Virus genome (UHGV): UHGV-0218015
From: a virus
Direction: 5' to 3' (one strand)
Length of the DNA: 64,000 bases
The position numbers were made by a program, and so were the translations under genes. This document shows, one piece after another, positions 3,062 to 48,785 of this stretch. The notes beneath the pieces are model-generated. The model saw nothing but the letters and a program-made list of their open reading frames with translations. It did no database searches and was not told the DNA's origin. Within the stretch, counting starts at the first letter, position 1; every line of letters starts with the position of its first letter.

Positions 3062-3676
3062 ATGTATAAGGTACGAGGCGATCATTTCATTCGCCCTAAT
3101 TTGGGACTATTAGAATACGCCACACATGGTGAATTCTACAAAGAAATGCTTCTGAGAGCCTTAAGACACTTTGACTGTATGTGGGTTTTGTTTCCCACAA
3201 GCGTGAAGACGTCGGACGAGGCAATACGTTACATTAATATCGCCATCAGTGAATTCTCGAAAGAGAATGTGTTTCCTGGCACTAATGCGGAACTGAAGAA
3301 GCTAGATAAATACCTGAAACGATTAAACGACGAGTACAGGCAGTGGGAATTTAACTCAATGATGGAAACCAGTTATACGGAGGACATGATTGAGGACATG
3401 CGCCCGCTCCTGGAGATCTATGAGTTATGTAAGATGCAGGGCCAGTCTTCTTGGGATGTGTTACGCGAGCATTCGATAGAAATTCTTCGGGATGCAATCA
3501 CACACATTTACGAGAACGATTGTGTCCCCGCGATCAAATTGTTCCGTACGGCGCATAAACGTGGTATTAAGCGCCTGTGCCTAAACCTGTCCATGCCTAG
3601 ACAGGTGGGAACTGTTGCGGGGGTTTACGTTACGTTCCATCTGGACATCACAATGTTGAGGAGTGATAATGTTTGA
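3062..3676 (+). CDS. hypothetical protein (204 aa)
   Basis: ORF, tightly packed with neighbours. Confidence 0.5.
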   Translation: MYKVRGDHFIRPNLGLLEYATHGEFYKEMLLRALRHFDCMWVLFPTSVKTSDEAIRYINIAISEFSKENVFPGTNAELKKLDKYLKRLNDEYRQWEFNSMMETSYTEDMIEDMRPLLEIYELCKMQGQSSWDVLREHSIEILRDAITHIYENDCVPAIKLFRTAHKRGIKRLCLNLSMPRQVGTVAGVYVTFHLDITMLRSDNV

Positions 3677-4082
3677 TTTTAGTAACATTGAACCAGGGTC
3701 TATCGTAAATATTGTTTACGATACTCCGTTAAAAGGTAATGAAACGCGAGTGCGTGTACTCGCGTCTAAAGTCGGCTATGAGTTTGCAAAAACCGCAGGC
3801 GAAGACCTGGCTGCTATCCAGAAGAACATTTATTCGTCGTTAGTAGCACAACCTTCAAATGACCTCACTGCGTATAACTATATGCTGTTCCGCGATTCTA
3901 CAGGTAAGGTAGGCGTTGCGGCAGATGCGTGGGTACGCGAAGTAAGGGTAATTACCAGTTTGACAGCACGTTTTGTTGTACAGCTCGATAACAAGCAGGA
4001 GAAAGAAGACCTGGAAGCTGCGTTGGCAGCACGTGGGTTTAATGATGTGGAAATCGAGATCATTGAAAACGCGGCAGGTTAA
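3663..4082 (+). CDS. hypothetical protein (139 aa)
   Basis: ORF followed by hairpin/T-run terminator. Confidence 0.5.
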   Translation: MIMFDFSNIEPGSIVNIVYDTPLKGNETRVRVLASKVGYEFAKTAGEDLAAIQKNIYSSLVAQPSNDLTAYNYMLFRDSTGKVGVAADAWVREVRVITSLTARFVVQLDNKQEKEDLEAALAARGFNDVEIEIIENAAG

Positions 4083-4090
4083 TCGAAAAT

Positions 4091-4130
4091 GTCCTCTCTT
4101 CGGAGAGGACATACTTCTTTCTTTTTTTTT
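4091..4130 (+). terminator. intrinsic terminator
   Basis: hairpin gtcctctctt/cggagaggac followed by T-run. Confidence 0.6.
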
Positions 4131-4185: not shown

Positions 4186-6498
4186 GTGGAATACATTTCT
4201 CCTTTTCGTTTAACGGTAGATGAATACCATCGTGATATCGATGTCAACGATGCCTACCGCGAACAAGTCGCGTTATACATTCATAACGTGACAGCACAAA
4301 AATACTCTTTAGAGTTTTGTCGTCAGGAAGTTGATGCTCTTATTGCCCCTGGCGGTGAGTTAGCAACTGAATCTCCTGTGTGTAAGATGTGGGTGCGTAA
4401 TCAGAAAACGGGCGATCGTGAGGAAAAATACACAACCGTCGATAAGTTATTTAAAACCGTCATTGACAAACAGATTATCTCCGCACCTTCGTTAACTTTT
4501 TATTTGCCCGAACACGTCAAACGTTCTAAGTTATCTGAATTCACAGCAGCTAACGTGGCGAAACGTGATGCGGTAAAAAAGGAAATGTTTGCAGCAGCAG
4601 CAGCGGGCAATGTAGTATTAAATATCAACAAAAAGAACGAACAGAATGCGGTCAAGACGCTGAACAACGGTATGTCTGGCGCATTTTCCTCCCCGTTCAC
4701 GATCCTTTTTAATCAGTCCTCACACTCCACACTGACGTCCACTTGTCGTACTGCAACATCGTTCGGCAATGCTGGAAATGAACGTTTATTAGGCGGTAAT
4801 CGACATTACGATACCCCGTCGCGTATTATCGATCATTTCTTATCTATCGGTACCTTAACCGATTGGAATAGCTTTAAGAAATGTATGGAGACGTATGAGC
4901 TTCATTACCCGTCTGTAGAAGAGGTGATGGAAGTTATTCATTATTCTGCCGATTTCTACTTTAAGAGCGAAGCGGGGATGGAGTTCGTTGAGCATTACGT
5001 TAGTAATGTATCGCCGTTGACGCGTGCCGCGTTTGTTTACATGGGTGACTTTTTCCACCTGGCGAAATACAACGATAAGTTCATGCGCGACTTTATTGGC
5101 GCATTAATTACCCCTGATGTGCGTGTTGATACTGAGGGCTGGACTGATACGGACTGGGTTGCTGCTGAGAAGACCATCGATGGTGATATGCAGATTATTA
5201 TCTCACAGTTCCGTACCGACGTAGTACCGATGGGTAAAGCGTTCAGTGACGTTAAGAAACTTGACGGTAATAAAAAACCCTTACCGTGGGATCAGCAGGA
5301 TGGTTATAAAGAACTAATTCGTTCCGCGCTGTTCTTACAGAAAACGATCGGTAAATACGCACTACTGATTCGCAATATTCTTACCACGAAAAATTTACCG
5401 ATCAATATTGCCCGAATGCCGGATGTGGTTCGTCGTGTAGGCGTAGTGTCTGATACTGACTCTACAATGATGACTGCGCAATGGTGGGCAATCTGGTACA
5501 CTGGTAAACATTACGGTGAAGTAGCGACCCGTGTTTCCAATGCAATGATCTATATTGCGACACAACACTTGCGACATTTGATGGCGAGCATGTCAGCAAA
5601 CATCGGCGTGGCGAAGGAGCGTTTGTTCCTGTATGCAATGAAGAACGAATTTAAGTTTGATTCGTTTGCACTGACTACCAAAGCAAAACATTACTTCTCG
5701 TTGATTACCGGACAGGAAGGTCAGCTGAAAAAAGATCCCGAGCTGGAAGTAAAAGGTGTGTCTTTACGTACATCTAACATTCCTCCGATTATCATGAAGG
5801 AGTTTAAGAACACCATCAAAGGGTTATGTGAAGTTGTTGCCCGCGGTGATCAGATCGAAATCATTCCGTTGCTGGAAAAGGTTGCCCAAATCGAACACAC
5901 GATTATGGATTCTATTCGTTCTGGGAATCCAGGGTATTTGAAAACGACGAACATTAAGGAACGTAGCGCTTATAACGAGAAGGATGAAAAGAACTACCAT
6001 TACCACCGAATGTATAATGCTATCTTTGGTCCGAAGTTTGGTTATTTGGAAGAACCGCCCTACGATGCTGTGAAACTTCCGGTAACGTTGGAAAACAAAA
6101 CGAAGATTAAAGAATGGATTGACAGTATCGAAGATCCGATTATCAAGAACGGTGCATCGGCGTGGTTTGAGGAGACAAATTTCCGTAAATATAAAACGTT
6201 GATTCTACCAGAGCATTTGGTGGAAAACTACGGTATTCCTAAAGAACTGATCGATATCGCAGATATCCGTCGTACCGCTTTCTCTACGGTTGAACCGTAT
6301 TATCACATTCTTGAATGCTTAGGTGTGTTCATGATGGATAAAAACAGGATGAGGTTGTTGTCGGATTTCTACGATAAAACCGAGGAGAAAGACGAACTGT
6401 ACAAGGAATTAGCGGAAGTACAATACGTTAAGAAATCGGAGAGGGCAGGGGATGACGAAGAAGACGATGATGAAGAAGAGGTTTTTGACGACGAATGA
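4186..6498 (+). CDS. putative DNA polymerase catalytic-domain protein (family B-like)
   Basis: 770 aa, GTG start with RBS; VVSDTDST (motif C-like DTDS), KTLNNGMSGAF (motif B-like) and downstream KAKHY; acidic C-terminal tail DDEEDDDEEEVFDDE; motif A not confidently found. Confidence 0.4.
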   Translation: MEYISPFRLTVDEYHRDIDVNDAYREQVALYIHNVTAQKYSLEFCRQEVDALIAPGGELATESPVCKMWVRNQKTGDREEKYTTVDKLFKTVIDKQIISAPSLTFYLPEHVKRSKLSEFTAANVAKRDAVKKEMFAAAAAGNVVLNINKKNEQNAVKTLNNGMSGAFSSPFTILFNQSSHSTLTSTCRTATSFGNAGNERLLGGNRHYDTPSRIIDHFLSIGTLTDWNSFKKCMETYELHYPSVEEVMEVIHYSADFYFKSEAGMEFVEHYVSNVSPLTRAAFVYMGDFFHLAKYNDKFMRDFIGALITPDVRVDTEGWTDTDWVAAEKTIDGDMQIIISQFRTDVVPMGKAFSDVKKLDGNKKPLPWDQQDGYKELIRSALFLQKTIGKYALLIRNILTTKNLPINIARMPDVVRRVGVVSDTDSTMMTAQWWAIWYTGKHYGEVATRVSNAMIYIATQHLRHLMASMSANIGVAKERLFLYAMKNEFKFDSFALTTKAKHYFSLITGQEGQLKKDPELEVKGVSLRTSNIPPIIMKEFKNTIKGLCEVVARGDQIEIIPLLEKVAQIEHTIMDSIRSGNPGYLKTTNIKERSAYNEKDEKNYHYHRMYNAIFGPKFGYLEEPPYDAVKLPVTLENKTKIKEWIDSIEDPIIKNGASAWFEETNFRKYKTLILPEHLVENYGIPKELIDIADIRRTAFSTVEPYYHILECLGVFMMDKNRMRLLSDFYDKTEEKDELYKELAEVQYVKKSERAGDDEEDDDEEEVFDDE

Positions 6499-7952: not shown

Positions 7953-8001
7953 ACGTGAACCAACACTACAATTGTATTAAACCTTATAAGGATTAAGTAA
8001 A

Positions 8002-9858: not shown

Positions 9859-9887
9859 TAAGTTGGTAAGTAGTAAGCAGTAGTTGA

Positions 9888-9929
9888 GGGACAGGGGAAA
9901 ACCCCCTGTCCCTTCCCTCTCTTTTTTTG
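9888..9929 (+). terminator. intrinsic terminator
   Basis: gggacagggg aaaa ccccctgtccc followed by T-run. Confidence 0.7.
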
Positions 9930-9942
9930 TTGAGGATTCGGC

Positions 9943-21596: not shown

Positions 21597-23834
21597 ATGA
21601 AAACGCCAGTAGAGCTAATGAGCAGTGTGGCTGACCGTGAGATTAATATCACCGAAGTATCAGGTGCAAGGGCATCGATGGTAGGCAACCATATGAAGTC
21701 CGCGGTCCCTATCGATAATCCTGAACCATCGCCACATTTCACAGGTGCAGATATAAACTACCACGATTTTCTGTTCAACGACGTTGTAGAAGATCCCGGT
21801 AGCATCTGCCACTATATGACCAAAGACGGTCGTCAGCGCCGTGCGACATTTACACGTTATGGTCGTCGTGGGGATTCTAAAGCGTTGGAACATGCTATCT
21901 TCTTCCGCCGTGCAGAAATGAAGGGCGGTAAAACCATGATAGATGTGCTGGAGATTAACTTCTATACTAACCACGACAACATCTTCTCATCTGAGAAGCG
22001 TGAGTCGATGAAACTGCGTAGTATTTTACGTGGTGAAACCGATCAGTTGGAAAAGGATGAAATTCTTACAACAATGTCGTGTATGGTGGAAGGTGAGTAC
22101 GCTGATAGCGTCGTGCTACCAACTGTTACGATTTCGCATCCTGATATTATCGAGGATTCTTACACCATCTCTGAGTACGCCGCCCAGAAGCTCCACGGTT
22201 ACGGTTTGAAAATCGTTGAAAAGACGCTACGCGAAGACGAGTTTTTACTGGATACTTACGGTTATATCGATCCGAATGGTAATCGTGTCCCACGCTATTT
22301 CCCGGATGTGGGGGAAGCTATTCGTGACGATGGGCTGGTCATTGCATCACGTCGTTTCGATGAGCTTTACGGTGCAATTGATGCGTCGCTTGGGGAAACC
22401 CAACACGTCTCCCCGTTCTTTGATAGTTGCGAATATGTGGATGCCGATCCCGTCCATTATAAAGCACGCCTTGCGGGCGACAAAGAACTGATGGAGAGTA
22501 GCGGTACACGCATCGTCGATATCCAGGTGTGGCGTGATGAAACGTCTTGCGCGAATGGCACCAACAATATTTCTTGTACCGAAGAGAACAAACGAGAACT
22601 GGATAAATACGCATTAGCATTGAAAGACTATTACAATGCCATTGTACGTTTCTATTTCTCGATGTCTCGTGACAAAAATATTATTTGGTCGCCGAAGGCG
22701 TGTGTGCTGTTGGAAAAAGCCTTCGCTTCCGAAACGTACGAAGTCTATCACGAGTTTCGTGAAGAGATTCGCGTGGTGATTGATGAAGCGATTCGTCGTG
22801 GTGAATATGGTAAAGAAAATGTCAGTCAGCAAATTCTTTCTAAGTTGACCGCACCAGTACAGCGTGGACTCAGCGATCCCATCAACACGTATACCATTCG
22901 TATTGCTGTTCGTTATCCGATCCCGGTAACGGTGTCGTCTAAGATTACTGACCGTTCGGGTACGAAAGGGATTGTTGGACGCGTGTTACCCGTTGAACAG
23001 ATGCCGATTAACGAATTCGGTGAACGTGTTCACGTTTTACGTTCGATGAACGCTGTAATTCGTCGCTCGACTTATGCAGCACTATTCCACATGTATTGGT
23101 CAGCTGCGTCTGAGCAGTTGAAGATGCGTCTTAAACCAATGCTGGACGAAGGCCGTATCAGTGAATGTTGGGAAATCCTGATGGATTATCTGTCACGTTA
23201 TAATCCTGAATGGGCCAACACACTACAGGTAACACATCCTACGGAGGATTTACAACGCGAACTCTTTAAAGAGATTTACGATTTTACAATACGTATTTAC
23301 TTGCCACATGAACTTGACGACACGCCAGTCGATATCAGTGAACGGTTGGGTGAATTTAAACCACGTAAATCAAAACTTCTACTTACTAACTTCGACGGTA
23401 AGCAGGAATGGACAAAAGATGAATTTTACGTAGGTGGTGTGGAAACATTACGTCTGGATAAAACAGGTCGTGAGTTTTCCAGTATCTCGTCAATGTATCT
23501 GAATTATCTGGGTACGATAGACGCGTCTAACCAAGGTCGTGGCTCGTATCCGATAAACTATAAAACGCTAAAATGGGCTGGTCCTTCGGAAGAACGACTG
23601 TTAGCGGGTTATGGTCCAGGTAACTACGAAGAAGTTCACGATAGGGCAAATAACCCTGCGGTACATCGTGAGATTTTAGTAGGGCTTTATCGATCTCAAA
23701 CCCCATCTAATCCGGGTCCATTAGTAGACCGGAATAAATTCCCGTTAGGGGATTCGCAGATTGACAGGATGATGAAAAACATCCACAACTGTGAAGGGTT
23801 TGAATTGGTGAAAATGAAAAGGGGCGATGAATAA
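21597..23834 (+). CDS. RNA polymerase beta-like subunit, C-terminal part
   Basis: 745 aa; DRSGTKGIVGRVLPVEQMPINEFGERVHVLRSMNAV resembles bacterial beta GRHGNKGVISKI..PIEDMPY..PSRMN region; AGPSEERLLAGYG resembles GGQRFGEMEVWALEAYG (from memory). Confidence 0.7.
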   Translation: MKTPVELMSSVADREINITEVSGARASMVGNHMKSAVPIDNPEPSPHFTGADINYHDFLFNDVVEDPGSICHYMTKDGRQRRATFTRYGRRGDSKALEHAIFFRRAEMKGGKTMIDVLEINFYTNHDNIFSSEKRESMKLRSILRGETDQLEKDEILTTMSCMVEGEYADSVVLPTVTISHPDIIEDSYTISEYAAQKLHGYGLKIVEKTLREDEFLLDTYGYIDPNGNRVPRYFPDVGEAIRDDGLVIASRRFDELYGAIDASLGETQHVSPFFDSCEYVDADPVHYKARLAGDKELMESSGTRIVDIQVWRDETSCANGTNNISCTEENKRELDKYALALKDYYNAIVRFYFSMSRDKNIIWSPKACVLLEKAFASETYEVYHEFREEIRVVIDEAIRRGEYGKENVSQQILSKLTAPVQRGLSDPINTYTIRIAVRYPIPVTVSSKITDRSGTKGIVGRVLPVEQMPINEFGERVHVLRSMNAVIRRSTYAALFHMYWSAASEQLKMRLKPMLDEGRISECWEILMDYLSRYNPEWANTLQVTHPTEDLQRELFKEIYDFTIRIYLPHELDDTPVDISERLGEFKPRKSKLLLTNFDGKQEWTKDEFYVGGVETLRLDKTGREFSSISSMYLNYLGTIDASNQGRGSYPINYKTLKWAGPSEERLLAGYGPGNYEEVHDRANNPAVHREILVGLYRSQTPSNPGPLVDRNKFPLGDSQIDRMMKNIHNCEGFELVKMKRGDE

Positions 23835-25933
23835 TGAAGGGCACTCCAGTTCACGTGCGTGATCTGTGTAAGCTGAACTCGGATCAGGTGTGGCTATTGC
23901 GCGGCAGATATGAAGTGACGTTTGATGACGGGGTAACCTTAAACATGTCAGGACGTCACATTAAAATCAGTTGGCCTTATTGGGGGCTAACACGGTTTTA
24001 TCCGCAGATCCCAATCAGTTCGCAAATGGCGTATAAACATGGTGACACCGCTACAGACGACGCACATCTGAAGTTTATGTCATTGGCAGCTGTAGCGGCT
24101 CGTAAAGCGGGTGTGGATTTAGCAGACACCCGTTATTTATTACAGCAGCACGTTTATGCGGATGCGTTTAACTTATCGGTGAAAAATCTGTTATCGTATT
24201 GCGTCACGATTGACTACGATACGATGATGGAAATTTACCAACACCGAAACTTTACGCAGATTCATCAGTGGGCACAAATGTATCCTACTGGATACGACGA
24301 AGAAGGTCGGGATATGGTTGAGGAAGCGTATCTTCTTATCGAAGATATCTTCAAAGACCCACAACTTCGTTTAAACCCTGTGGTGATGTCGGTCTTGGAT
24401 AAGACCATCAAAATGAACCAGGTTCTTCAGGCGTATATACGCGGGAAAACATCAGAGATTGATTCTCGTGTTTATTCTAACCAGGTATGGGAAGGTTTCT
24501 TCACGGGCCTACATTCTGTAATTAGCCGTCTGAAAGAAGCAGGTGCAACGTCACGTTCTCACCTGTATAACACCGATAAAATCGCCGATGCGGAATATGC
24601 GTCACGTAAGCTACAGTTAGCAGCTAACGTGTTAATGTATTTCGAATACGACGATTGTGGTACGCATCATGTTCACCGTCACACGTTTACAGAAAGTAAA
24701 CTGGAGCGTAAGAAGTACGATGCGATGGTGGGAATGCGTTATCGTTTTGAAGGCGTGGGCGGTCCGTGGTTACGATTCGAGAAAGGGGAGTTTGAGAAAG
24801 TCTTAGGCAAACCTATTGAGTTTCGTAGTGCGATGTGTTGTAAGGGGATGGCACGTCAAAGTATTTGTGCTACGTGTATGGGTGATTTGATTTATAACCT
24901 TTCGCCGGGAACGTCCCCAGGTCACTTGGCCTCAACCTCGATATCTGAAAAGGGTACACAGGGGATTCTCTCAACGAAACACCTGGACTTCTTACGCTAT
25001 CTGCTGAACCTGGTGCTGACTCCAAGAATGCGGGATTATCTTGGGGAGTATAAACACAACTCCGTAAAAGGGTTGAGTTTACGAGAGAAACCGCAGTACG
25101 GTAATTGGGATGAATACCAACTCGTTATTTCTGATGAAGTCTATTCTGAAATCAGCCAAATCGCGTATCATGACGACTTGGAAGTGATCGACGAAACGGC
25201 ATTGCCGGAGATTAACGAACTGACCTTTTTGCGATTGGACGAAGCCGGGAATGTGCTGGCCGAAGATCCCATTGATGTCCGTATGGGCGTTTGTGGTAAC
25301 TTCTCGAAAGCCTTCTTGCATTTCTTCCTGAAGCAGCGTGATAACATTACGTTTCCGTCGAAGAAACTGGTACGGATTCCTCTGAAAGGTTGGAAGCCGA
25401 GTTGGCCGATACTAATTTATACGAATCGGTCTGAATCTATGGCGGAGTTTGTAGCAGGGTTAGAATTGAAACTTCGTTCGGTTGCGTCTGATAAATCGGA
25501 TACTTTCGAACAGTTCTCTGATGACTCAATGCGCTTGAGCAAGAAGTCGGGTAAGGTAAAACCAACGACACTGGTTCAGATGCGTGGTGCTACAGAAAAG
25601 CAATGTACGCACGCGTTATTTGATGTGTTTAAATATATCCAACGTAAGCTCGGTGGTATTCCGATGACACACATCGCGATTATGCTGGCGATATCACGCG
25701 TTGAATCACCGACCAATCCTTTCCCGGCGGTTGGGTTTGATAGTGAAGATGCTGATGTGATGGATGGCAAACGTTTCGAGGATCACAATACGTTGATTGC
25801 GATGCGTTCAGCTGTACCGATGTTGTTATTCGAAGGCCAACAGAAAAACCTGGACAACGTGCGTTTCTACACGTCGCGTAAACGTCCGGCGTCGTTATAC
25901 GACAATACGGTGGCCGCGACTATCATAGAGTAA
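23834..25933 (+). CDS. RNA polymerase beta-prime-like subunit, C-terminal part
   Basis: 699 aa; YDDCGTHH (cf. EDDCGTHEG), CATCMGDL (cf. CAHCYGRDL zinc site), SISEKGTQGILSTKH (cf. SIGEPGTQLTMRTFH). Confidence 0.7.
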   Translation: MKGTPVHVRDLCKLNSDQVWLLRGRYEVTFDDGVTLNMSGRHIKISWPYWGLTRFYPQIPISSQMAYKHGDTATDDAHLKFMSLAAVAARKAGVDLADTRYLLQQHVYADAFNLSVKNLLSYCVTIDYDTMMEIYQHRNFTQIHQWAQMYPTGYDEEGRDMVEEAYLLIEDIFKDPQLRLNPVVMSVLDKTIKMNQVLQAYIRGKTSEIDSRVYSNQVWEGFFTGLHSVISRLKEAGATSRSHLYNTDKIADAEYASRKLQLAANVLMYFEYDDCGTHHVHRHTFTESKLERKKYDAMVGMRYRFEGVGGPWLRFEKGEFEKVLGKPIEFRSAMCCKGMARQSICATCMGDLIYNLSPGTSPGHLASTSISEKGTQGILSTKHLDFLRYLLNLVLTPRMRDYLGEYKHNSVKGLSLREKPQYGNWDEYQLVISDEVYSEISQIAYHDDLEVIDETALPEINELTFLRLDEAGNVLAEDPIDVRMGVCGNFSKAFLHFFLKQRDNITFPSKKLVRIPLKGWKPSWPILIYTNRSESMAEFVAGLELKLRSVASDKSDTFEQFSDDSMRLSKKSGKVKPTTLVQMRGATEKQCTHALFDVFKYIQRKLGGIPMTHIAIMLAISRVESPTNPFPAVGFDSEDADVMDGKRFEDHNTLIAMRSAVPMLLFEGQQKNLDNVRFYTSRKRPASLYDNTVAATIIE

Positions 25934-31041: not shown

Positions 31042-31908
31042 TTGGAAAAGGCTATGATTGACATTTATACCGATTACGCCGCCGTTCTTACCGTCAATCG
31101 TGCGGAAGAACGTGCTGCGCCTTTCCTGGACTTAGTAACGCTGTGCATGGATTACGGTTACGATGTTGCGTTAAGCGATGTGTATTGGCAACCGTCGTCT
31201 GATCCTGCCGACGAAACCGTAAGACTGGAAGGGATTATTGTAAAATGCGCAGTGGCGTTAGGTAACCGTTTAGGCGTTGCTTTAAACCCACAAGAAGTTT
31301 TCCGTAAACCGAAAGAGACCGTACGTATTCTAGACGGCATTACGTCTAAATTCGAAGAGTTCGAAGACACCGATACGTTATACGGTCTCGTGATGTCTGG
31401 AGAAACGCCAGAGTTTATCCTGGAAAGTATCTGCCGTTACGTGTACGGCGACGATAATATCCATTTTGAAGATTTGGTCATTCGTGTTTCACCCCGTGTA
31501 ATGACAGTGATGCGTAATTATCTCTCAGCTATGGTTGTGGATGAGCAACTCGCTGTAGGTAACGATGTACGTCTGACGCGTATTGCAGAATACTTGCGTC
31601 TTTATCCGCAAAATCCCTCTGCGTTCGTATTCTTAAACTTACCTGAAGATCCTGATTTGACGGTTGTCCAACAATCGTTAGTCTTTGACGTCGAGGATTA
31701 CAGCGAAACAGAATTGCTCGAGATGTATACGGTAGGACTTTCGATTATCGATAACGATGACTTCGATGACGCGTATGCTGATCTTTCGACGAACTTAGAG
31801 AAACTTAATAATGATGGGTTACAACCCATTACTGTTTTACAACCCGCATTAAAAAGCCTACGGGTAATTTATCGGGTTGAGGAGGCAGAGCACGATGACG
31901 AGGTTTGA
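31042..31908 (+). CDS. hypothetical protein (288 aa)
   Basis: ORF. Confidence 0.5.
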   Translation: MEKAMIDIYTDYAAVLTVNRAEERAAPFLDLVTLCMDYGYDVALSDVYWQPSSDPADETVRLEGIIVKCAVALGNRLGVALNPQEVFRKPKETVRILDGITSKFEEFEDTDTLYGLVMSGETPEFILESICRYVYGDDNIHFEDLVIRVSPRVMTVMRNYLSAMVVDEQLAVGNDVRLTRIAEYLRLYPQNPSAFVFLNLPEDPDLTVVQQSLVFDVEDYSETELLEMYTVGLSIIDNDDFDDAYADLSTNLEKLNNDGLQPITVLQPALKSLRVIYRVEEAEHDDEV

Positions 31909-33196
31909 GTTCTTAGTAGCGGCATGTAAAGCCGAAGCATGGCGTCGCTTGGTCTGGCGTATTGCTATCTTTAACATGTCGGTGTTTCCAACTGGGCGTG
32001 AAGAACCCGAAGCGTTTGATATTACGTACATTGACGGCTTACCGCATTATTACGCTGTAGAAGACGGCAAGGGCAGTTGGGAACCGATTACCGATGGTGT
32101 AAAGGATCAGGAGCTGTTTATTCCTGAAGAACAGTTCGAACTCCGTCCCGACGACTATCCCGGTTTAGAAGGTCCTATCCCCACGACAGTAGGACGATAC
32201 GTTTTTAACTGGATTGTTATCTGGTATGCTTTCGGTACACGTTTACCCTATCTGGCGATTTCACAAAACCCGTTGGAATACCGCAAAGAGATGCATCGGC
32301 GTTGTTTAGACCATGAATCCGATGAGCCAGAAAACGAAGGTGCGATTCGACCGAGTATGATCGAACGCTTCGTAAGCGGCTTACACGAACTCGCTCCACT
32401 CACGTCAGGTATTGCACCAACCGGTACGTTACGAAGCCTTACGGTGCATCCTGATGCGTATAAAATCCGCGATGCGTTGCTGTTGAAGCACAAGGATGAA
32501 TTAGACGATCCTGCCGTTATCGTTAAGATTGAAAAAGCGTTGGATGAGTTAGACAAAGAGTGGTTGTCAGGTGACCAATCTATTGAGTTTTATAACTCGC
32601 CGAAATCACGGATGCGTCGACGTAAATTAATGCTGATGTACGGTATTGAATCGTCTTTTCAGGAAGGGGGGCATTATACGCTCATTCCGAACGCGTTAGT
32701 TGAGGTTGATAAGGCGGGGATGGAAAACCTGGTTGCGAAATTCAACTCTATTCGTGAAGGTTCATTCTCTCGTGGTGCGGAAACAGCGAAAGGGGGTGAG
32801 CAGGTACGTATTATCCAGATGATTTTCCAGAACCACCGAATCGTCCCTGGCGACTGCGGAACGAAACTAACGTACCCGGTTGTGATTACCGAAGATAACG
32901 TAAAACGTTACGTTGGGATGAATGCGATGGTTAATGGTAAACTGACACCACTGTCTGAAGAATATTTAAAGCAGCAGTTAGGTAAGGTGGTGCGGTTACG
33001 CCGACCCATCTTATGTCAGTATGGCCACATCGACACCTGCACAGCGTGTTCGTCTGCGAATAAAGGGGAAGAACCTCGTGCAATCGCTGCGGATATATCC
33101 TCGGCGTTCTCTAACGTTATGTCCGTGGCAATGGCCGCGATGCACGGTAAAGAGACTGTGGTACACGAATTTAATCCATCGATCCACATTACGTAA
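31895..33196 (+). CDS. hypothetical protein
   Basis: ORF 31877..33196; start moved to ATG 31895 with GAGGAGG RBS. Confidence 0.5.
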   Translation: MTRFEFLVAACKAEAWRRLVWRIAIFNMSVFPTGREEPEAFDITYIDGLPHYYAVEDGKGSWEPITDGVKDQELFIPEEQFELRPDDYPGLEGPIPTTVGRYVFNWIVIWYAFGTRLPYLAISQNPLEYRKEMHRRCLDHESDEPENEGAIRPSMIERFVSGLHELAPLTSGIAPTGTLRSLTVHPDAYKIRDALLLKHKDELDDPAVIVKIEKALDELDKEWLSGDQSIEFYNSPKSRMRRRKLMLMYGIESSFQEGGHYTLIPNALVEVDKAGMENLVAKFNSIREGSFSRGAETAKGGEQVRIIQMIFQNHRIVPGDCGTKLTYPVVITEDNVKRYVGMNAMVNGKLTPLSEEYLKQQLGKVVRLRRPILCQYGHIDTCTACSSANKGEEPRAIAADISSAFSNVMSVAMAAMHGKETVVHEFNPSIHIT

Positions 33197-33209: not shown

Positions 33210-33719
33210 ATGGCAACTAAAGATATTTCGACACAAGACGAGCGTCCGTCAGCTGTAAGACGTGCTGAGGAAAATGCGGTAAATTACAGCCAAGATGACG
33301 CGTACCAGGTGCGACTTATTGCTACCCAGCTCGATGAGGCTGGCGCGGCAATTAGCCAAAATAAACCGAAAGATACTCCAGAAGCTGACGATGCTTTCCG
33401 TAAGCTGCATCAATCGTTCCGTTCGTTATTTGAACTACGCGGTCAGGCGTTCGTTGATGCTTTCAACGTGTTCGTTGAAGCTGCAATTAAACACAAGCGC
33501 GGTATCTTCTACTATCCGAATGTGAACTACCATTTAGATTGGTTTTACGATTCCGCCGAACGTGAAACATACGTCGTGTTCATCAATATGTTAGTACGTT
33601 TCGCAAATTCCCAGGATAAAGCAAACTTCGCTCAGCGTGACAACGTTGGTCGTTTGGTACAACGTGTGACCGATCCAGAGCTGCAACACTTACTGGCTTA
33701 CTGCTTCAACGCGGCATAA
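33210..33719 (+). CDS. hypothetical protein (169 aa)
   Basis: ORF followed by bidirectional terminator. Confidence 0.5.
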   Translation: MATKDISTQDERPSAVRRAEENAVNYSQDDAYQVRLIATQLDEAGAAISQNKPKDTPEADDAFRKLHQSFRSLFELRGQAFVDAFNVFVEAAIKHKRGIFYYPNVNYHLDWFYDSAERETYVVFINMLVRFANSQDKANFAQRDNVGRLVQRVTDPELQHLLAYCFNAA

Positions 33720-33724
33720 AAGTA

Positions 33725-33768
33725 TTACCCTACTCCCGATGGGAGTAGGGTAACGTTTATTTTTTTTT
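33725..33768. terminator. bidirectional hairpin terminator (repeat family copy 1)
   Basis: ttaccctactcc ... ggagtagggtaa plus T-run; same 12-bp stem as 39087..39114. Confidence 0.65.
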
Positions 33769-35548
33769 ACTTTGCGGCTTTGATGTATTCAAAAGGATCG
33801 GTAATTGCTTCTCCTTGTCGACGTAGAAAAGCTTCTAAGACGTCGTTTTTATCGGGCAATAGGAAGAAATCTGTCGCGATCTCCATTGCGTTAACGCGAC
33901 CTGCAGTAAGGTTAATACCGACGCGACGCCGTACTTCTTCAGGAACACCGTGAATGCTTAATAACTCGATTAACGTCGTCTCACGAGACTGGTTCATCAT
34001 GTTTGTTGCGGATGGGTATGCCTGGGTTAAGTCAGCATCTGCGGTTTGACCACGGAAAGCCGTGTAGAAATCATCAACCTCCTTGATGATGTTTCGTAGG
34101 CCATTCTCTGCGTTCATACACGCGGTCAATGTAACAATCCAACCGTCTGTCCCAATGACTTCATTGTCAAAATCGTTACGCATCGCGCTACCCACACAGC
34201 CGATAACCAGACCTTGTTCGTAGAGGTAGTACGTGTACGCAATACAGATTCGCTTCGGCAGAGAAGGGAAGATATCGTACATCGAATAACCTGCCAACAC
34301 TGAAATAGCAGAAGACAGATCGTTCGTCTTTTTATCAAGCAGAACAATCATCAGGTTATCGAAGATGTTATAAACGCAGTATTCTAACGGGAAATCTTTC
34401 TGTGCCTTTAAGTGCCATTCCAATTTTTCCTCGTAGGGTAAATCCGGTAAGTCTAACTTGTTTAAACCCAACTCGGTTTCCAGTATCGCGTTAAGTTTGT
34501 AAGAAGGACGTTGCCCTTCGTGTACACGCAATGAACGGAATAGACACATCGCATCTACACAGTAGAATGACGCCGTACAATAAAGAATGTGCCACTGCTG
34601 CGAAGGTGCTTTTGTTAGTGACTTTGATTCCGTTTTCTTCGATGCTTCGTCTTTCTTAAAGTAGACACGACGGTACTGTTTCGGCACGTCTGGATGACAG
34701 AAGACGTCTTCCGGTGGAATGCCCGCTGCTTCTAAAGCTTCTAACATACGTGAAATATCGAACTCGTGGTTCCATGCGACGAGTAAGTCAGGGAGACGAG
34801 GGTGGATTTCCTCAAACATACGTTGAATACAACAACCCGAATTGAGACATTCGTAAACGAAGATTTTGTAACCGTCGATAACGTTTTTGTATTTAACGAT
34901 AGGATTGTCGTTCTCGTCTTTTCCACGAAAAGCGATTTTAGAAAGCAAATCCTGAGCACGATTGACGAGTCGCGCTTCAAAGTTTTCACGTCCGCAGCGT
35001 GTGACGTAGTCTTTCGTAGCAAAGAAATGAATCTCGTCGTCTAAAACAAAACTCATAATCCAGGGGTCTCGAGATTTGTCTTCTTCTCGAGTTTCCACGT
35101 CGTATACACAGATGCGGTTGGGTGAAACAGCATTAGGCCATTTACGCATGTACTTTTCTTTAATCCAGCTCGTAATGGGCAAATCGGCCCAGTAAACAAA
35201 CGGTGAAGTACAAACTTGGCGGAGCGGTTTCTTTTTGTCGGGAAAACGAATCCCCAAACCCATCTGTATGGTTGAGGACATCATTACATCCGTTGTTAAA
35301 TATTCCTGACACTTACTACGTTCCTCGTATTCCTTCTTTTCCTTGTGGTTACGATGTTGTGGTAAAGTAATGTAGATGGGACGTTTCAGATTTTCACGCA
35401 TGACAATTCGTGGGATATATCTGCCATCTTTAGTATGGACGACCTCCTTTATGAGCACGAAGTCGTTTTCTTTCTGCTGATCGGTTGCGTAAGAAACAAA
35501 CTTGCACTCCTTGGCAATAACGTCTTCCGGTGCGTAATAGTTATTCAT
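33767..35548 (-). CDS. family-B-type 3'-5' exonuclease domain protein (putative DNA polymerase N-terminal/exonuclease subunit)
   Basis: Exo I CVYDVETRE, Exo II AWNHEFDISRM, Exo III YCVDAMCL; start taken at Met 35548 (RBS), ORF open to 35662. Confidence 0.55.
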   Translation of the reverse strand: MNNYYAPEDVIAKECKFVSYATDQQKENDFVLIKEVVHTKDGRYIPRIVMRENLKRPIYITLPQHRNHKEKKEYEERSKCQEYLTTDVMMSSTIQMGLGIRFPDKKKPLRQVCTSPFVYWADLPITSWIKEKYMRKWPNAVSPNRICVYDVETREEDKSRDPWIMSFVLDDEIHFFATKDYVTRCGRENFEARLVNRAQDLLSKIAFRGKDENDNPIVKYKNVIDGYKIFVYECLNSGCCIQRMFEEIHPRLPDLLVAWNHEFDISRMLEALEAAGIPPEDVFCHPDVPKQYRRVYFKKDEASKKTESKSLTKAPSQQWHILYCTASFYCVDAMCLFRSLRVHEGQRPSYKLNAILETELGLNKLDLPDLPYEEKLEWHLKAQKDFPLEYCVYNIFDNLMIVLLDKKTNDLSSAISVLAGYSMYDIFPSLPKRICIAYTYYLYEQGLVIGCVGSAMRNDFDNEVIGTDGWIVTLTACMNAENGLRNIIKEVDDFYTAFRGQTADADLTQAYPSATNMMNQSRETTLIELLSIHGVPEEVRRRVGINLTAGRVNAMEIATDFFLLPDKNDVLEAFLRRQGEAITDPFEYIKAAK

Positions 35549-35619: not shown

Positions 35620-36954
35620 ATGGGATATTGGCAAAATCACATTGCATCAGTTGCGGATGCAAAGGTTGTAGCCGCAGAATCGATTAAATTCCAAGACAAA
35701 AAGAAGCTGGCAGAATTGGCTGATGTTATTGCTAAGTTTCGTGGGGCAGGCGATTTCAGTCCTGCGGGCTACGAAAGTGCCGGGGTTTCGGATTGGGTAT
35801 TTAAGAATATCGGCATTACGATTCACTTTAAGAACGGTGGCGAACTGGGTCTTGCTGACGTCGCTTTTGCAGGTGTAGAACCACCGAAATTGGATGCAAA
35901 CAGCCCAATCATCGCGTCGATGACTCGCGCACTGTACGCAGGTAACAAAGACCTGGATATGTACAGTAAGTTCATCAAAGAAAACGAACTAAACACAACA
36001 ATCGATGACAGCAGTGCAAGAATCAGTGGTGACCTAAGCAAAGTAGGTTCTCCGCTTTACCTTACCCCGGTGCTGCTGGAAAAACTAAACTTGACCGATC
36101 TGGAGATCGCTTCGGTGATTCTTCACGAGGTGGGGCACATCTACTATTATTTCCGTACGCTGATGCGCACTGTAGTGACTGATTTGCTGGCAGATGCTGC
36201 GGCTAACCGCATTATGGAAACGGAAGACCAAACTGTCCGCCTGCGTATCGTTAAAGACGTGGAAAAGATGCTGAACACGAAAGTGAATCAGCCGGAAACG
36301 ATTTGTACTGAGTACAAAAAAGAAAACGTCTATATGCACCTAGTCACACAGCTGTTATTAGATCGTCCGTACATTAGCGGCAGTCAAGGCTTTGCTAACA
36401 GGACATGGGAACGTGCTGCGGATGATTTTGCTTCCCGCTTTGGCGGCGCTCCTTATCTGGCCTCGGCACTGTATAAAATGGAAACCAGTCCGTTCTATTT
36501 GCTGCGGAACTCAGCGTATATGAACATGGGTGTCCATTTGACACTGGAGCTTTTCCGCGTGACTGCGCTGATAGTTTCTTCTACGATTCCAATTATTCCG
36601 GTGATCTCTGTGACGTTCGGAATGATCTTAAATGACCCGGATAACACCATTTACGATCCGCCGCAGCAGCGTTTTGAGGCGATGCGTCGTACACTCGTTG
36701 AAGAACTCAATACGATTAAAGACAAGAATACGAAAGCTGCTAACGAACAACGTAAACGTATTCTGGATGGTATTGCGGTTATCGACAAGCTGTTAGAAAC
36801 GGTAAAAGACAAAGATAATCTGTATCAGTTTATCTGGAATACCTTGACGCCGAAGGGTCGTCGTTCACGTGCTGCTGTGGACTATCAGCGTGCAATCGGG
36901 AAGTACATGTCGAATGACCTTCGTATTGCTTCAGCCATGTTTAATGTCGAATAA
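35620..36954 (+). CDS. putative HExxH zinc metallopeptidase-like protein
   Basis: VILHEVGHIY motif; start at ATG 35620 with AAAGGA RBS (ORF open from 35587). Confidence 0.4.
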   Translation: MGYWQNHIASVADAKVVAAESIKFQDKKKLAELADVIAKFRGAGDFSPAGYESAGVSDWVFKNIGITIHFKNGGELGLADVAFAGVEPPKLDANSPIIASMTRALYAGNKDLDMYSKFIKENELNTTIDDSSARISGDLSKVGSPLYLTPVLLEKLNLTDLEIASVILHEVGHIYYYFRTLMRTVVTDLLADAAANRIMETEDQTVRLRIVKDVEKMLNTKVNQPETICTEYKKENVYMHLVTQLLLDRPYISGSQGFANRTWERAADDFASRFGGAPYLASALYKMETSPFYLLRNSAYMNMGVHLTLELFRVTALIVSSTIPIIPVISVTFGMILNDPDNTIYDPPQQRFEAMRRTLVEELNTIKDKNTKAANEQRKRILDGIAVIDKLLETVKDKDNLYQFIWNTLTPKGRRSRAAVDYQRAIGKYMSNDLRIASAMFNVE

Positions 36955-46040: not shown

Positions 46041-46099
46041 GGGGGCCCCTCATTCTAGGGGCGTGTAATTGGGTTATATAACCAAAGGAAATAAACGAA

Positions 46100-47371
46100 A
46101 TGGCAAATTTCGCAAAAACTCGCGCCGCTCGTGAATCGATGGAAGCGGCCGATGAAGTAATCGACGGTATCAGCAACGTTGAACCGGCAGAAGAGAACCT
46201 GGACGTCCAACTTGCGGACGTTGCATCTATCGACGGTCAGCTCGATCAGCTGGAAACCGACGGTGAAACCCTGGCTGCCGATACCGAGCGTACTGAAGAC
46301 GCTATCGAACAGGCGGAAGAAGCCGTTGCTAACGGTGAAGAAATGCCGGAAGAAGCGGTTGCCCTGCACGAAGTGGCACAGGAATCCATCGCACGTCGTT
46401 GGTGCCTGGAACGTACTAAACTGGCTCGCGAATCCTATCGCCGTGGTCGTGGTATGACTGCTGCTGCCCAGGAAGGTTGGAAAGAAACCCTGAAAGATCT
46501 TTACGATCGTTTCATTCAGTTCTGTAAAGAAGTGATTGCGAAGATCAAAGACCTGAAACTGAAATATTTCAACGTCGGTAAGACTGCACAGAAACGTGCG
46601 AAGAAATATCAGGAAATGCTGCGTAAGCTGGGCAAACAGAAGAAAGATGAGATCTCTGGTGGGTTTATCACCAAGCTGTCTATCGAAGGTAAATTCGATG
46701 CTGCTGGCTCTATCGCTATTGCGAAAGAAGTTACCGCTGGTAAAGCTAAAGGTTCCATCAGTGCTCTGGAAAAACAGGCCGGTGAAGCTGTAACTGCTGT
46801 GAGCAAGGGTGACGACGATTCCTTCAAAGCAATGCGCGGCGATCAGCCTGTAGACCTGTTCGGTAAAGCAGCGTCTAAACTGCATTCTCTGCCGAATTTT
46901 GAAAAAGGCGATGCGTCTAAATTGCTGGCACTGCCAGGCAACGCGTACATTCAGGCTGGTACTAAAGAACTGGCTGGCGGCCACAAGTTCACCGCAATTG
47001 CTTTCATGAGCACCGGTGACGCTTCTGACGATAAAGACGTGAAAACTCCGTCTGTTTCTGAAATGGCTGGTGCTGCTTCTGCTCTGGAAGCAATCGGTAA
47101 AGGCTTCGAAGCCGTACTGAAAGATTTCCGTGCTTACGATTCTGAAATCGTGAAACTGCAACAGGCTGCTGAAAAAGCAACCAAAGAGCTGAATAACGAG
47201 AAAGACGAAAGCAAATGGGATGGCCTGCGTAACGCACGTCAAGCTGCTGATTGGTCTGTTAAGAACTACCAGACCCTGAACCGCGCCGTTAGCTATGTTG
47301 CTAACACCGTTATTAGCGGTCTGAATGGTTACCTGGGTGCTGGTATCGGTGCTTACGAAAAATCTAAATAA
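46100..47371 (+). CDS. abundant paralog A (423 aa); putative processed virion-internal protein
   Basis: extreme codon bias (395-codon antisense shadow); acidic N-terminal region with ARES, AQES motifs; shares RKLGKQKKDEISGGFI and C-terminal GYLGAGIGAYEKSK with downstream paralog. Confidence 0.6.
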   Translation: MANFAKTRAARESMEAADEVIDGISNVEPAEENLDVQLADVASIDGQLDQLETDGETLAADTERTEDAIEQAEEAVANGEEMPEEAVALHEVAQESIARRWCLERTKLARESYRRGRGMTAAAQEGWKETLKDLYDRFIQFCKEVIAKIKDLKLKYFNVGKTAQKRAKKYQEMLRKLGKQKKDEISGGFITKLSIEGKFDAAGSIAIAKEVTAGKAKGSISALEKQAGEAVTAVSKGDDDSFKAMRGDQPVDLFGKAASKLHSLPNFEKGDASKLLALPGNAYIQAGTKELAGGHKFTAIAFMSTGDASDDKDVKTPSVSEMAGAASALEAIGKGFEAVLKDFRAYDSEIVKLQQAAEKATKELNNEKDESKWDGLRNARQAADWSVKNYQTLNRAVSYVANTVISGLNGYLGAGIGAYEKSK

Positions 47372-47453
47372 TAATTTAGATTCGTAGTTCCGTACAGTTC
47401 TTGAAATAAATCATCAGGGGAACAACGCGTTCCCCTTAGAGGAAAAGCTTAAA

Positions 47454-48719: not shown

Positions 48720-48737
48720 TCTCTGATTGTTTAGTAA

Positions 48738-48785
48738 GAGAACCACCCTATTACAGGGTGGTTCTCTCTTTTCTTTTTTTTTTTC
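48738..48785 (+). terminator. intrinsic terminator (strong)
   Basis: gagaaccaccct attac agggtggttctc followed by about 19-nt T-run. Confidence 0.75.

What the first reader, a model, noticed from the sequence alone, without database searches (positions are those of the whole stretch)
33767..35548. DNA polymerase functions apparently split between two distant, oppositely oriented genes
The minus-strand protein has Exo I/II/III motifs of family-B 3'-5' exonucleases in the right order. A separate plus-strand 770-aa protein (4186..6498), about 28 kb away, has a DTDS motif-C-like element, a motif-B-like KxxxNxxSG and a KxKxY element plus an acidic tail. If both are real, proofreading and polymerisation are encoded as separate polypeptides on opposite strands; motif A was not located, so one of the assignments may be wrong.
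Basis: partly seen in the sequence, partly recalled or inferred. Interest (0 to 1): 0.45.

Follow-up and report, generated by a model that had tools for sequence, protein, structure and literature searches.

The report
Known split jumbo-phage DNA polymerase
The two distant, opposite-strand genes are the two halves of the split family-B DNA polymerase already described in phiKZ/SPN3US-type giant phages; the one detail beyond published maps is that the "missing" catalytic motif A appears to sit on the exonuclease half.

Summary
The minus-strand ORF 33767..35548 (593 aa) carries Exo I/II/III. The plus-strand ORF 4186..6498 (770 aa) carries motif B, DTDS and KxY.

The window is a SPN3US/ChrisDB-like, phiKZ-related jumbo phage, syntenic with SPN3US. 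Both genes there are annotated "DNA polymerase" (gp18 and gp44) in the same arrangement. The literature already calls them a split-subunit DNA polymerase. The 770-aa protein matches Pfam PF20286 (divDNApol, E 7e-279) and the 593-aa protein matches PHROG 3011 (E 4e-249). Predicted structures of both find RB69/T4 gp43 as the best match.

It lies near the C-terminus of the "exonuclease" protein (D504-A-D506-LTQAYPS...N519...T524). Its spacing is identical to RB69 region II, and it is invariant in 150 diverse relatives. The break therefore appears to fall inside the palm, between motifs A and B. On this reading the polymerase active site is built from both chains, not split into proofreading versus polymerisation. 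This differs from published domain maps but is sequence inference only.

It has precedents in T4-like gp43A/B and Methanothermobacter PolB. Verdict: already known, low interest.

The parts
33767..35548 (-). Gene for chain 1 of the split PolB (593 aa): N-terminal domain, 3'-5' exonuclease domain, and first palm segment with motif A. Orthologue of SPN3US gp44.
   Evidence: PHROG 3011 'DNA polymerase' E 3.6e-249. AF2 model pLDDT 81. Foldseek to RB69 gp43 E 3.7e-13 over about 466 columns. hhalign to RB69 residues 98-432, probability 96.6%. Syntenic with SPN3US YP_009153338.1.
35090..35107 (-). Exo I (VYD150VE152T)
   Evidence: D150 and E152 are invariant in 150/150 representatives. Aligned to RB69 D114/E116.
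34754..34774 (-). Exo II (WN260HEFD264I)
   Evidence: N260 in 144/150; position 264 is D in 144/150 and E in 6/150. Aligned to RB69 WNVESFD222.
34355..34381 (-). Exo III (Y390CVY393NIFD397N)
   Evidence: Y393 and D397 are invariant in 150/150. Aligned to RB69 Y323/D327.
33974..34045 (-).
   Evidence: Aligned to RB69 FD411LTSLYPSIIRQVN424ISPET429 with identical spacing. D504 in 150/150, D506 in 147/147, Y511 and P512 in 141/143.
33770..34177 (-). C-terminal 136 residues of chain 1 (458-593): first palm segment plus a conserved about 66-aa extension (GINLTAGRVNAMEIA...). Predicted with low confidence in isolation.
   Evidence: pLDDT 30-60 for residues 458-593 against above 90 for most of residues 1-450. 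Conserved residues N553, P565 and others. That it folds only on the partner is inference.
4186..6498 (+). Gene for chain 2 of the split PolB (770 aa): N-terminal extension, fingers, helical insert, second palm segment, thumb, acidic tail. Orthologue of SPN3US gp18.
4465..4785 (+). Pre-finger hairpin and fingers (residues 94-200), including motif B K157TLNNGMSG165 at 4654..4680
   Evidence: Pfam PF00136 residues 94-189 to HMM 98-190, E 1.5e-4. Profile hit to Pol zeta 1020-1099, E 0.001. hhalign residues 120-150 to RB69 475-505. K157, N160, N161, S164 and G165 are invariant.
4786..5430 (+). Long all-helical insert between fingers and motif C (residues about 201-415), with invariant D288
   Evidence: DSSP of the AF2 model shows helices 211-398. 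Described as a family hallmark in PMC7824862. D288 conserved in 42/42.
5443..5472 (+). Motif C hairpin (VVSD423TD425STMM)
   Evidence: D423, T424, D425 and S426 are invariant. Beta-hairpin at 420-423/426-429 in the model.
5677..5697 (+). KxY element (TKAK501HY503F), equivalent to RB69 K705-K706-R-Y708
   Evidence: hhalign residues 495-558 to RB69 706-765. K501 and Y503 are invariant.
6352..6495 (+). Conserved C-terminal RLLSDFY motif (6352..6372) followed by a lineage-variable acidic tail (ERAGDDEEDDDEEEVFDDE, 6439..6495)
   Evidence: Many relatives end at ...SDYY. The tail is present only in some lineages. The motif was noted as a possible clamp-binding-like signature in PMC3201878. Tail pLDDT is below 50.
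3663..4082 (+). Upstream small gene: SH3-fold protein associated with phage DNA polymerases, a possible accessory subunit
   Evidence: Pfam PF20287 SH3DP E 1.1e-30. Conserved neighbour noted in PMC7824862. Same position in SPN3US and EL.
4089..4112 (+). Hairpin plus T-run between the SH3DP gene and the polymerase gene
   Evidence: Terminator-like site, 10-bp stem. This is a consensus match only.
33724..33754 (.). 13-14 bp hairpin between the convergent genes, immediately downstream of the chain-1 stop codon; terminator-like on both strands
   Evidence: This is a consensus match only.

Best explanation
The two ORFs encode the two chains of the divergent, naturally split family-B replicative DNA polymerase of phiKZ-related (chimallin-type, 'group 1') jumbo phages. 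They are orthologues of SPN3US gp44 (593-aa chain) and gp18 (770-aa chain).

Chain 1 supplies the N-terminal domain, the 3'-5' proofreading exonuclease and the first palm segment, which carries motif A (catalytic D506, plus D504, Y511 and P512).

Chain 2 supplies the fingers (motif B), a large helical insert, the second palm segment (motif C, D423/D425, and KxY) and the thumb.

The most likely mechanism is an obligate heterodimer. The motif-A strand and helix of chain 1 dock onto the palm of chain 2 to complete the two-metal active site. The extra conserved segments that flank the break (chain 1 residues 528-593 and chain 2 residues 1-93) probably serve as the docking module.

Shown here: homology, motif content, fold of each chain, synteny and co-occurrence.

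Inferred: physical association, trans-completion of the active site, and any role of the upstream SH3DP protein or the acidic tail.
For: Family assignment:
- PF20286 E 7.4e-279, PHROG 2927 and PHROG 3011 E 3.6e-249.

Synteny and annotation:
- SPN3US has the same two genes, same orientation, about 27 kb apart, both named DNA polymerase.
- The window is about 74% identical in DNA to Erwinia phage ChrisDB at both loci.

Literature:
- Exonuclease and polymerase lie on two chains in phiKZ-like phages (PMC3201878).
- 'Split subunit DNA polymerase', SPN3US gp18 and gp44 (PMC5105663 and PMC5694885).
- No fused exonuclease, SH3 neighbour (PMC7824862).

Fold:
- Chain 1 model to RB69 gp43, Foldseek E 3.7e-13.

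Motif A on chain 1:
- hhalign probability 96.6-97.8%, running through RB69 D411-LTSLYPS...N424...T429.
- Spacing is identical.
- D504 in 150/150, D506 in 147/147, Y511 and P512 in 141/143 representatives at 50% identity or less.

Motif order on chain 2:
- It starts at the pre-finger hairpin (residue about 100, equivalent to RB69 about 455) and runs B then C then KxY.

Other support:
- The C-terminal 136 residues of chain 1 are the only long low-confidence part of an otherwise confident model. This is consistent with folding on the partner.
- Co-occurrence: 317 versus 324 phage records with near-identical genus counts.
- No fused form among the best 150 representatives.
- In some relatives an HNH-endonuclease element, probably a group I intron, is inserted exactly inside the motif-A codons of chain 1. 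Such elements typically home into catalytic-site coding sequence.
- Precedent that PolB tolerates splits between motifs A and B: Aeromonas phage 65 gp43A/43B and an engineered split Pfu polymerase that is fully active (PMC3061061).
Against: No experiment or complex model here shows that the two chains bind each other.

Published maps place the motif-A aspartate on the polymerase chain (EL D229; PMC3201878) and treat the exonuclease as a possibly stand-alone partner (PMC7824862).

Sequence similarity of chain 2 to classical PolB is weak outside the fingers and KxY regions (E about 1e-3).

The motif-A region of chain 1 is modelled with pLDDT below 50, so its strand-helix structure is not confirmed.
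Confidence: 0.8

Rival explanations
1. This is the clean functional split proposed by the first reader and implied by earlier papers. The 770-aa protein would be a self-sufficient polymerase with its own motif A inside the chain (the equivalent of EL D229, window D226). The 593-aa protein would be a stand-alone proofreading exonuclease that merely associates with it.
For: PMC3201878 marks EL polymerase D229 and D398 as the two active-site aspartates. [quoted passage not shown] Chain 2 folds confidently on its own (pLDDT 84.7).
Against: EL D229 aligns to window D226, which is D in 35 and N in 6 of 41 relatives.

D226 lies after motif B, which is the wrong order for PolB. In the model it sits between helices, not at the end of a beta-strand.

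Chain 1 carries a complete region II with exact RB69 spacing, invariant in 150 representatives. Such conservation would be hard to explain in a pure exonuclease.
Confidence: 0.13
2. The two products would be joined after translation by a split intein, or at RNA level by trans-splicing, into one conventional PolB polypeptide. Precedents are Nanoarchaeum PolB and the intein-bearing PolB of phage MIJ3.
For: Split-intein PolBs exist in other jumbo phages (PMC6892783). Both chains have extra segments at the break.
Against: No Hint or intein family hit appears in either protein, even at E up to 1.

The chain 2 N-terminus is helical in the model, whereas inteins are all-beta. It has no conserved HN followed by C/S/T junction: H33 and N34 are not conserved and the next residue is V.

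The genes are on opposite strands 27 kb apart, each with its own start and terminator-like hairpin.
Confidence: 0.02
3. One of the two genes would be a decaying remnant or would have another role, for example a repair nuclease, so that the pairing is coincidental.
For: No direct evidence for this was found. The two genes are not adjacent and are not co-transcribed.
Against: Both ORFs are intact. All catalytic residues are invariant across hundreds of relatives. The two genes show the same phyletic distribution. The representative search found 1,490 proteins at E up to 0.001, 606 of them at E up to 1e-30.
Confidence: 0.03

Closest known systems
SPN3US gp18 (YP_009153312.1) plus gp44 (YP_009153338.1), and their orthologues in phiKZ, 201phi2-1 (gp144), EL and OBP: the phiKZ-type 'split subunit' divergent PolB (Pfam PF20286 divDNApol; PHROG 2927 and 3011)
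   Same: The two protein families, gene order, opposite orientation, spacing of about 27-29 kb, upstream SH3DP gene and all motifs are the same. Protein identity to SPN3US-like phages is 74-79%.
   Different: Nothing structural differs. This window is a distinct species-level relative: about 74% DNA identity to the nearest isolate phage, and 94-96% protein identity to uncultured or E. coli-associated contigs.
T4-like split gp43A/gp43B (Aeromonas phages 65, 25, 31, 44RR; Acinetobacter phage 133)
   Same: It is a natural two-chain PolB with motif A on the exonuclease-bearing chain and motifs B and C on the other chain (PMC3061061).
   Different: There the break is at the fingertip and the genes are adjacent (2 bp to 3 kb apart), on the same strand, with otherwise canonical gp43 sequence. 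Here the break is before the fingers, both chains carry extensions at the break, the genes are 27 kb apart on opposite strands, and the enzyme is highly divergent with a helical insert of about 215 aa.
Methanothermobacter thermautotrophicus PolB1/PolB2 (Kelman et al. 1999, cited in PMC3061061)
   Same: It is a split within the palm domain, with genes far apart (85 kb) and activity reconstituted from two chains.
   Different: The break lies further C-terminal, about 83 residues beyond the Pfu fingertip split. It is a cellular archaeal enzyme with canonical sequence.
Rhodothermus phage RM378 PolB (predicted split between the N/exonuclease part and the palm; cited in PMC3061061)
   Same: The exonuclease-bearing part and the polymerase part are separate polypeptides.
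   Different: Here motif A stays with the exonuclease chain.
RB69/T4 gp43 (single-chain PolB)
   Same: It is the best structural match for both chains, and Exo I-III, motifs A, B, C and KKRY are all collinear with it.
   Different: gp43 is a single polypeptide, has no helical insert, and uses a gp45 clamp through its C-terminal tail. No clamp is known in phiKZ-like phages (PMC3201878).

Membership tests
Family B DNA polymerase (PolB) | Exo I (DxE), Exo II (Nx2-3[FY]D) and Exo III (Yx3D) in order | tested here: met
   D150/E152, N260/D264 and Y393/D397 on the 593-aa chain. They align to RB69 D114/E116, D222 and Y323/D327 and are conserved in 144-150 of 150 representatives.
Family B DNA polymerase (PolB) | Motif A / region II (DxxSLYPS...N....T) | tested here: met
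   D506LTQAYPS...N519...T524 is on the 593-aa chain, with spacing identical to RB69. D506 is present in 147/147. It is not on the same chain as motifs B and C.
Family B DNA polymerase (PolB) | Motif B / region III (KxxxNSxYG) in the fingers | tested here: met
   K157TLNNGMSG165, with S164 in place of Y. The residues are invariant. PF00136 matches residues 94-189, E 1.5e-4. Pol zeta fingers match at E 0.001.
Family B DNA polymerase (PolB) | Motif C / region I (DTDS) and the KKRY-type element | tested here: met
   D423TD425S and K501HY503 are invariant. The KxY region aligns to RB69 706-765.
Family B DNA polymerase (PolB) | PolB fold (N-terminal, exonuclease, palm, fingers, thumb) | tested here: met
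Family B DNA polymerase (PolB) | All domains on one polypeptide (canonical architecture) | tested here: not met
   There are two ORFs on opposite strands, 27 kb apart. No fused relative appears among 150 representatives.
Family B DNA polymerase (PolB) | Templated DNA synthesis and 3'-5' proofreading activity | not testable with these tools
   This needs biochemistry.
phiKZ-type split divergent PolB (SPN3US gp18/gp44 type) | Polymerase chain belongs to Pfam PF20286 divDNApol above the gathering score | tested here: met
   927 bits against a cut-off of 25.7, covering 3-705 of 705 profile positions.
phiKZ-type split divergent PolB (SPN3US gp18/gp44 type) | Separate exonuclease-bearing chain of the PHROG 3011 family encoded elsewhere in the genome | tested here: met
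   E 3.6e-249, covering 2-573 of 576 profile positions. The same arrangement is seen in SPN3US.
phiKZ-type split divergent PolB (SPN3US gp18/gp44 type) | SH3DP gene immediately upstream of the polymerase chain; jumbo-phage context with split multisubunit RNAP genes | tested here: met
   PF20287 E 1.1e-30. RNAP beta-type subunit PHROG 2962 at 31877..33196. SPN3US synteny.
T4-like split gp43A/43B | Break at the fingertip, adjacent cistrons, canonical gp43 sequence | tested here: not met
   Phage 65 gp43A ends inside the fingers and gp43B starts 2 bp later. Here chain 2 already contains the whole pre-finger hairpin and both finger helices, and the genes are 27 kb apart.
Split-intein PolB | Intein (Hint) blocks flanking the break | tested here: not met
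   No Hint or intein Pfam hit at E up to 1. The N-terminus of chain 2 is helical. No conserved HN followed by C/S/T.

The most novel reading that the evidence does not exclude
Throughout the phiKZ-related phages the catalytic motif A (region II, D506) is carried by the 'exonuclease' chain, not by the chain called divDNApol. The polymerase active site would then be assembled in trans from two polypeptides encoded tens of kilobases apart. The published domain maps (EL D229 as the motif-A aspartate; exonuclease as an optional stand-alone partner) would need correcting. The enzyme would be an obligate heterodimer held together by lineage-specific extensions at the break, possibly with the SH3DP protein.
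Probability: 0.7. Interest if true: 0.3.

Novelty: already known. Interest (0 to 1): 0.15.

Why it matters
The split replicase of phiKZ-like nucleus-forming phages is known, so the finding adds no new kind of system.

The placement of motif A is the practically useful point. Anyone expressing the divDNApol chain alone should then expect no polymerase activity. Both chains, and perhaps the SH3DP protein, would have to be co-expressed for biochemistry or structure work. Annotation as "exonuclease" versus "polymerase" would also be misleading.

It also adds one more break point (in the palm, before the fingers) to the list of places where family-B polymerases tolerate being split.

Tried and rejected
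- Single-sequence searches of the PDB gave nothing for either protein. Profiles were needed.
- hhalign of the polymerase-chain profile against RB69, or against a small T4-like profile, recovered only the KxY region and one finger helix. Motif B rests mainly on the Pfam PF00136 and Pol zeta profile hits and on exact spacing.
- I looked for a fused exonuclease-polymerase relative and found none among the best 150 of 1,490 hits. The 894-aa outlier P0190 has an unrelated acidic C-terminal extension.
- The split-intein idea was rejected: no Hint hit and a helical N-terminus.
- The tblastn '2 pieces' for the exonuclease chain in phiKZ/201phi2-1-type phages looked like an intron. It is a single annotated CDS with an insertion.
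- The longer TTG start at 35662 was rejected.
- Cornelissen et al. 2012, the paper credited with identifying the split polymerase, is not in the held library. I could not check whether it already places motif A on the exonuclease chain.
- The sigma-70 promoter scan was uninformative: the number of hits did not exceed the shuffles, and these phages use their own RNA polymerases.
Full report
**1. The observation**

Both ORFs are present as described.

- The minus-strand ORF 33767..35548 starts at an ATG preceded by GAGAG and encodes 593 aa. The mechanically longer TTG start at 35662 is not supported. PHROG 3011 covers residues 3-583 of the 593-aa form, and the closest database protein (P0001, 94% identity) is also 593 aa.
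- The plus-strand ORF 4186..6498 starts at a GTG 7 nt after AGAGG and encodes 770 aa.
- They are 27.3 kb apart on opposite strands.

- 593-aa protein: Exo I VYD150VE152T, Exo II WN260HEFD264I, Exo III Y393NIFD397.
- 770-aa protein: K157TLNNGMSG165, D423TD425S, K499AK501HY503, and an acidic tail at residues 752-770.

These are not chance matches.

- In 41 homologues of the 770-aa protein (down to 35% identity) the motif B, C and KxY residues are invariant.
- In 150 representatives of the 593-aa family (each under 50% identical to the others, mostly about 30% to the query) D150, E152, Y393 and D397 are present in 150/150.

**2. What it is**

The window comes from a phiKZ-related jumbo phage of the SPN3US / Erwinia-phage ChrisDB type.

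- DNA identity to ChrisDB is about 74% at both loci.
- Protein identity to SPN3US-like phages is 74-79%.
- Protein identity to uncultured or E. coli-associated contigs is 94-96%.
- The window is collinear with SPN3US. There YP_009153312.1 (11544..13823, +) and YP_009153338.1 (41224..43008, -) occupy the same relative positions and orientations, and RefSeq names both "DNA polymerase".

Family assignments:

- The 770-aa protein is a full-length member of Pfam PF20286 "Divergent Family B DNA polymerase" (E 7.4e-279) and PHROG 2927.
- The 593-aa protein is a full-length member of PHROG 3011 "DNA polymerase" (E 3.6e-249).
- The small ORF just upstream of the polymerase gene (3663..4082) is Pfam PF20287, "SH3 fold domain associated with phage DNA polymerases" (E 1.1e-30).

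**3. What the literature already says**

- Kazlauskas and Venclovas 2011 (PMC3201878) discovered the divergent PolB of phiKZ-like phages. [quoted passage not shown]
- Thomas et al. 2016 (PMC5105663) speak of the phiKZ "split subunit DNA polymerase".
- A 2017 paper on SPN3US (PMC5694885) names SPN3US gp18 and gp44 explicitly and credits Cornelissen et al. 2012 (phage OBP).
- Iyer et al. 2021 (PMC7824862) note that there is no fused exonuclease, that the exonuclease is encoded elsewhere, and describe the long helical insert and the SH3 neighbour.

The finding is therefore a rediscovery of a documented feature.

**4. Structure**

- AlphaFold2 with the homologue alignments gave a 593-aa model of pLDDT 81. 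Residues 1-450 are mostly above 90, while residues 458-593 are at 30-60.
- The 770-aa model has pLDDT 84.7.
- Foldseek against the PDB puts RB69 gp43 first for the 593-aa model (E 3.7e-13, about 466 aligned columns), followed by Pol epsilon.
- For the 770-aa model all 50 top Foldseek hits are RB69 or T4 gp43 (best E 2e-4).

The 770-aa protein has the polymerase fold, and the 593-aa protein is not a complete polymerase.

**5. Where motif A is**

This is the one point where my analysis goes beyond, and partly against, the published maps.

The 593-aa chain does not end with the exonuclease domain. Residues 502-525, TAD504AD506LTQAY511P512SATNMMN519QSRET524T, match PolB region II.

- Profile-profile alignment with RB69 gp43 (probability 96.6%, E 5e-10; 97.8% with a small T4-like profile) runs collinearly from Exo I to RB69 residue about 430. 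It pairs D506-LTQAYPS with D411-LTSLYPS (also the hmmsearch alignment).
- The extended spacing D(+5)Y(+6)P(+13)N(+18)T is identical to RB69 D411/Y416/P417/N424/T429.
- Across the 150 representatives D504 is present in 150/150, D506 in 147/147, and Y511 and P512 in 141/143.

The 770-aa chain begins, in RB69 terms, just before the fingers.

- Its IISAPSLTFYLP...KRSKLSEF...R...VKKEM...K157...NN..SG aligns to Pol zeta 1020-1099, to PF00136 HMM positions 98-190 and to RB69 475-505.
- This is followed by a helical insert of about 215 residues, then motif C, KxY and the thumb.

The break is therefore most likely inside the palm, between motif A and the fingers. Each chain carries a conserved extension at the break: chain 1 residues 528-593 and chain 2 residues 1-93.

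Kazlauskas and Venclovas marked EL polymerase D229 as the motif-A aspartate. That residue aligns to window D226.

- D226 is D in 35 and N in 6 of 41 relatives.
- It lies after motif B.
- It sits between helices in the model.

I therefore consider the chain-1 assignment much better supported. It remains an inference from sequence.

**6. Mechanism**

The most likely mechanism is an obligate heterodimer, in which the motif-A strand and helix of chain 1 complete the palm of chain 2.

Supporting but indirect evidence:

- The only long low-confidence stretch of chain 1 is exactly this C-terminal part.
- The two families have the same phyletic distribution: 317 and 324 phage records, with matching genus counts (Pseudomonas 81/81, Erwinia 62/62, Vibrio 23/23 and so on).
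- No fused form was found.

There are functional precedents for splits between motifs A and B.

- Aeromonas phage 65 gp43A carries Exo I-III, motif A and the first finger helix. gp43B carries motifs B, C and KKRY.
- An engineered Pfu polymerase split at the fingertip is fully active, and its C-fragment folds only in the presence of the N-fragment (PMC3061061).
- The same paper lists Methanothermobacter PolB (palm split, genes 85 kb apart) and phage RM378 (split between the N domain and the palm).

Roles for the SH3DP protein and for the acidic tail are speculative. The tail is lineage-variable and lies downstream of the conserved RLLSDFY motif.

**7. A side observation that bears on motif A**

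About nine of the 150 representatives stop exactly at or just after the D-x-D. In one such contig (L008):

- The ORF ends ...IRTHFGD*.
- It is followed by an HNH_3 endonuclease ORF and a weak Rfam group I intron match (25.8 bits, E 6e-4, below the gathering score).
- Then comes an 85-aa ORF reading (VDKG)LDVSASYPNNGAVFNISKATT..., which is the rest of motif A and the C-terminus.

A mobile element inserted precisely in these codons fits a catalytically critical, highly conserved target. The window's own gene is uninterrupted.

**8. Rivals**

- Clean exonuclease/polymerase division with motif A inside chain 2: possible, but disfavoured for the reasons in section 5.
- Post-translational joining by a split intein: rejected. 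There is no Hint hit at E up to 1, the N-terminus is helical, and there is no conserved splice junction.
- Pseudogene or unrelated function: rejected by conservation and co-occurrence.

**9. Verdict**

The feature is already known and annotated in close relatives. The modest added value is the placement of motif A on the exonuclease-bearing chain, which implies a composite active site. Interest is low.

Noticed in passing
L008:4001-7527 (ENA ERZ27292636 k141_223071); also representatives P0292, P0320, P0297, P0302, P0304, P0313, P0321, P0323: In some relatives the exonuclease-chain gene is interrupted exactly inside motif A. Exon 1 ends ...HFGD*. An HNH_3 endonuclease ORF and a weak group I intron match (25.8 bits, below the gathering score) follow. 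An 85-aa ORF then resumes with LDVSASYP.... This is probably a homing intron, or a further gene fracture, at the catalytic site.
   Followed up: partly
window 3663-4082 (+) and hairpin 4089-4112: The SH3DP (PF20287) gene lies directly upstream of the polymerase chain. It is separated from it by a 10-bp GC-rich hairpin plus T-run, so the conserved gene pair may not be simply co-transcribed.
   Followed up: partly
window 6352-6495 (+): The polymerase chain ends with the family-wide RLLSDFY motif followed by a 19-residue acidic tail (16 D/E in the last 30 residues). Similar tails occur only in some lineages and many relatives stop at ...SDYY. The function is unknown. By analogy with acidic tails of phage SSBs, which is my own knowledge, it may be a protein-protein interaction handle.
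   Followed up: partly
window 7993-9951 (-) vs 8002-9858 (+); 46055-47242 (-) vs 46100-47371 (+); 47436-48746 (-) vs 47454-48719 (+); 61880-63490 (-) vs 61256-63550 (+): Four places have long stop-free ORFs (395-652 aa) on both strands over nearly the same interval. At least two coincide with locally GC-rich segments (about 0.50). This is probably a compositional artefact of the real plus-strand genes, but it was not checked.
   Followed up: no
window 35620-36954 (+): This gene diverges from the exonuclease-chain gene and shares an intergenic region of about 71 nt with it. It has an HEVGH zinc-metalloprotease-like motif and a weak Peptidase_M48 hit (E 0.0045, below cut-off). Its SPN3US counterpart is annotated as a virion structural protein.
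   Followed up: no
window 9943-11442, 21597-25933, 31877-33196 (+); 13514-14758 (+): Other split or dispersed machinery typical of phiKZ-like phages lies between the two polymerase genes. There are several separate RNA polymerase beta/beta'-type subunit genes (PHROG 2962 at 31877-33196). There is also an SbcD-like gene without an adjacent SbcC. This is the same 'scattered subunits' pattern as the DNA polymerase.
   Followed up: partly
window 33724-33754: A 13-14 bp perfect hairpin lies between the convergent genes 33210-33719 (+) and 33767-35548 (-). It is terminator-like in both directions.
   Followed up: no
L006:1453-3369 and L007:1501-3630: phiKZ-type (SL2) and 201phi2-1 orthologues of the exonuclease chain are longer (638 and 709 aa) because of an internal insertion that splits the tblastn match into two pieces. 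Each is a single annotated CDS, not an intron.
   Followed up: partly
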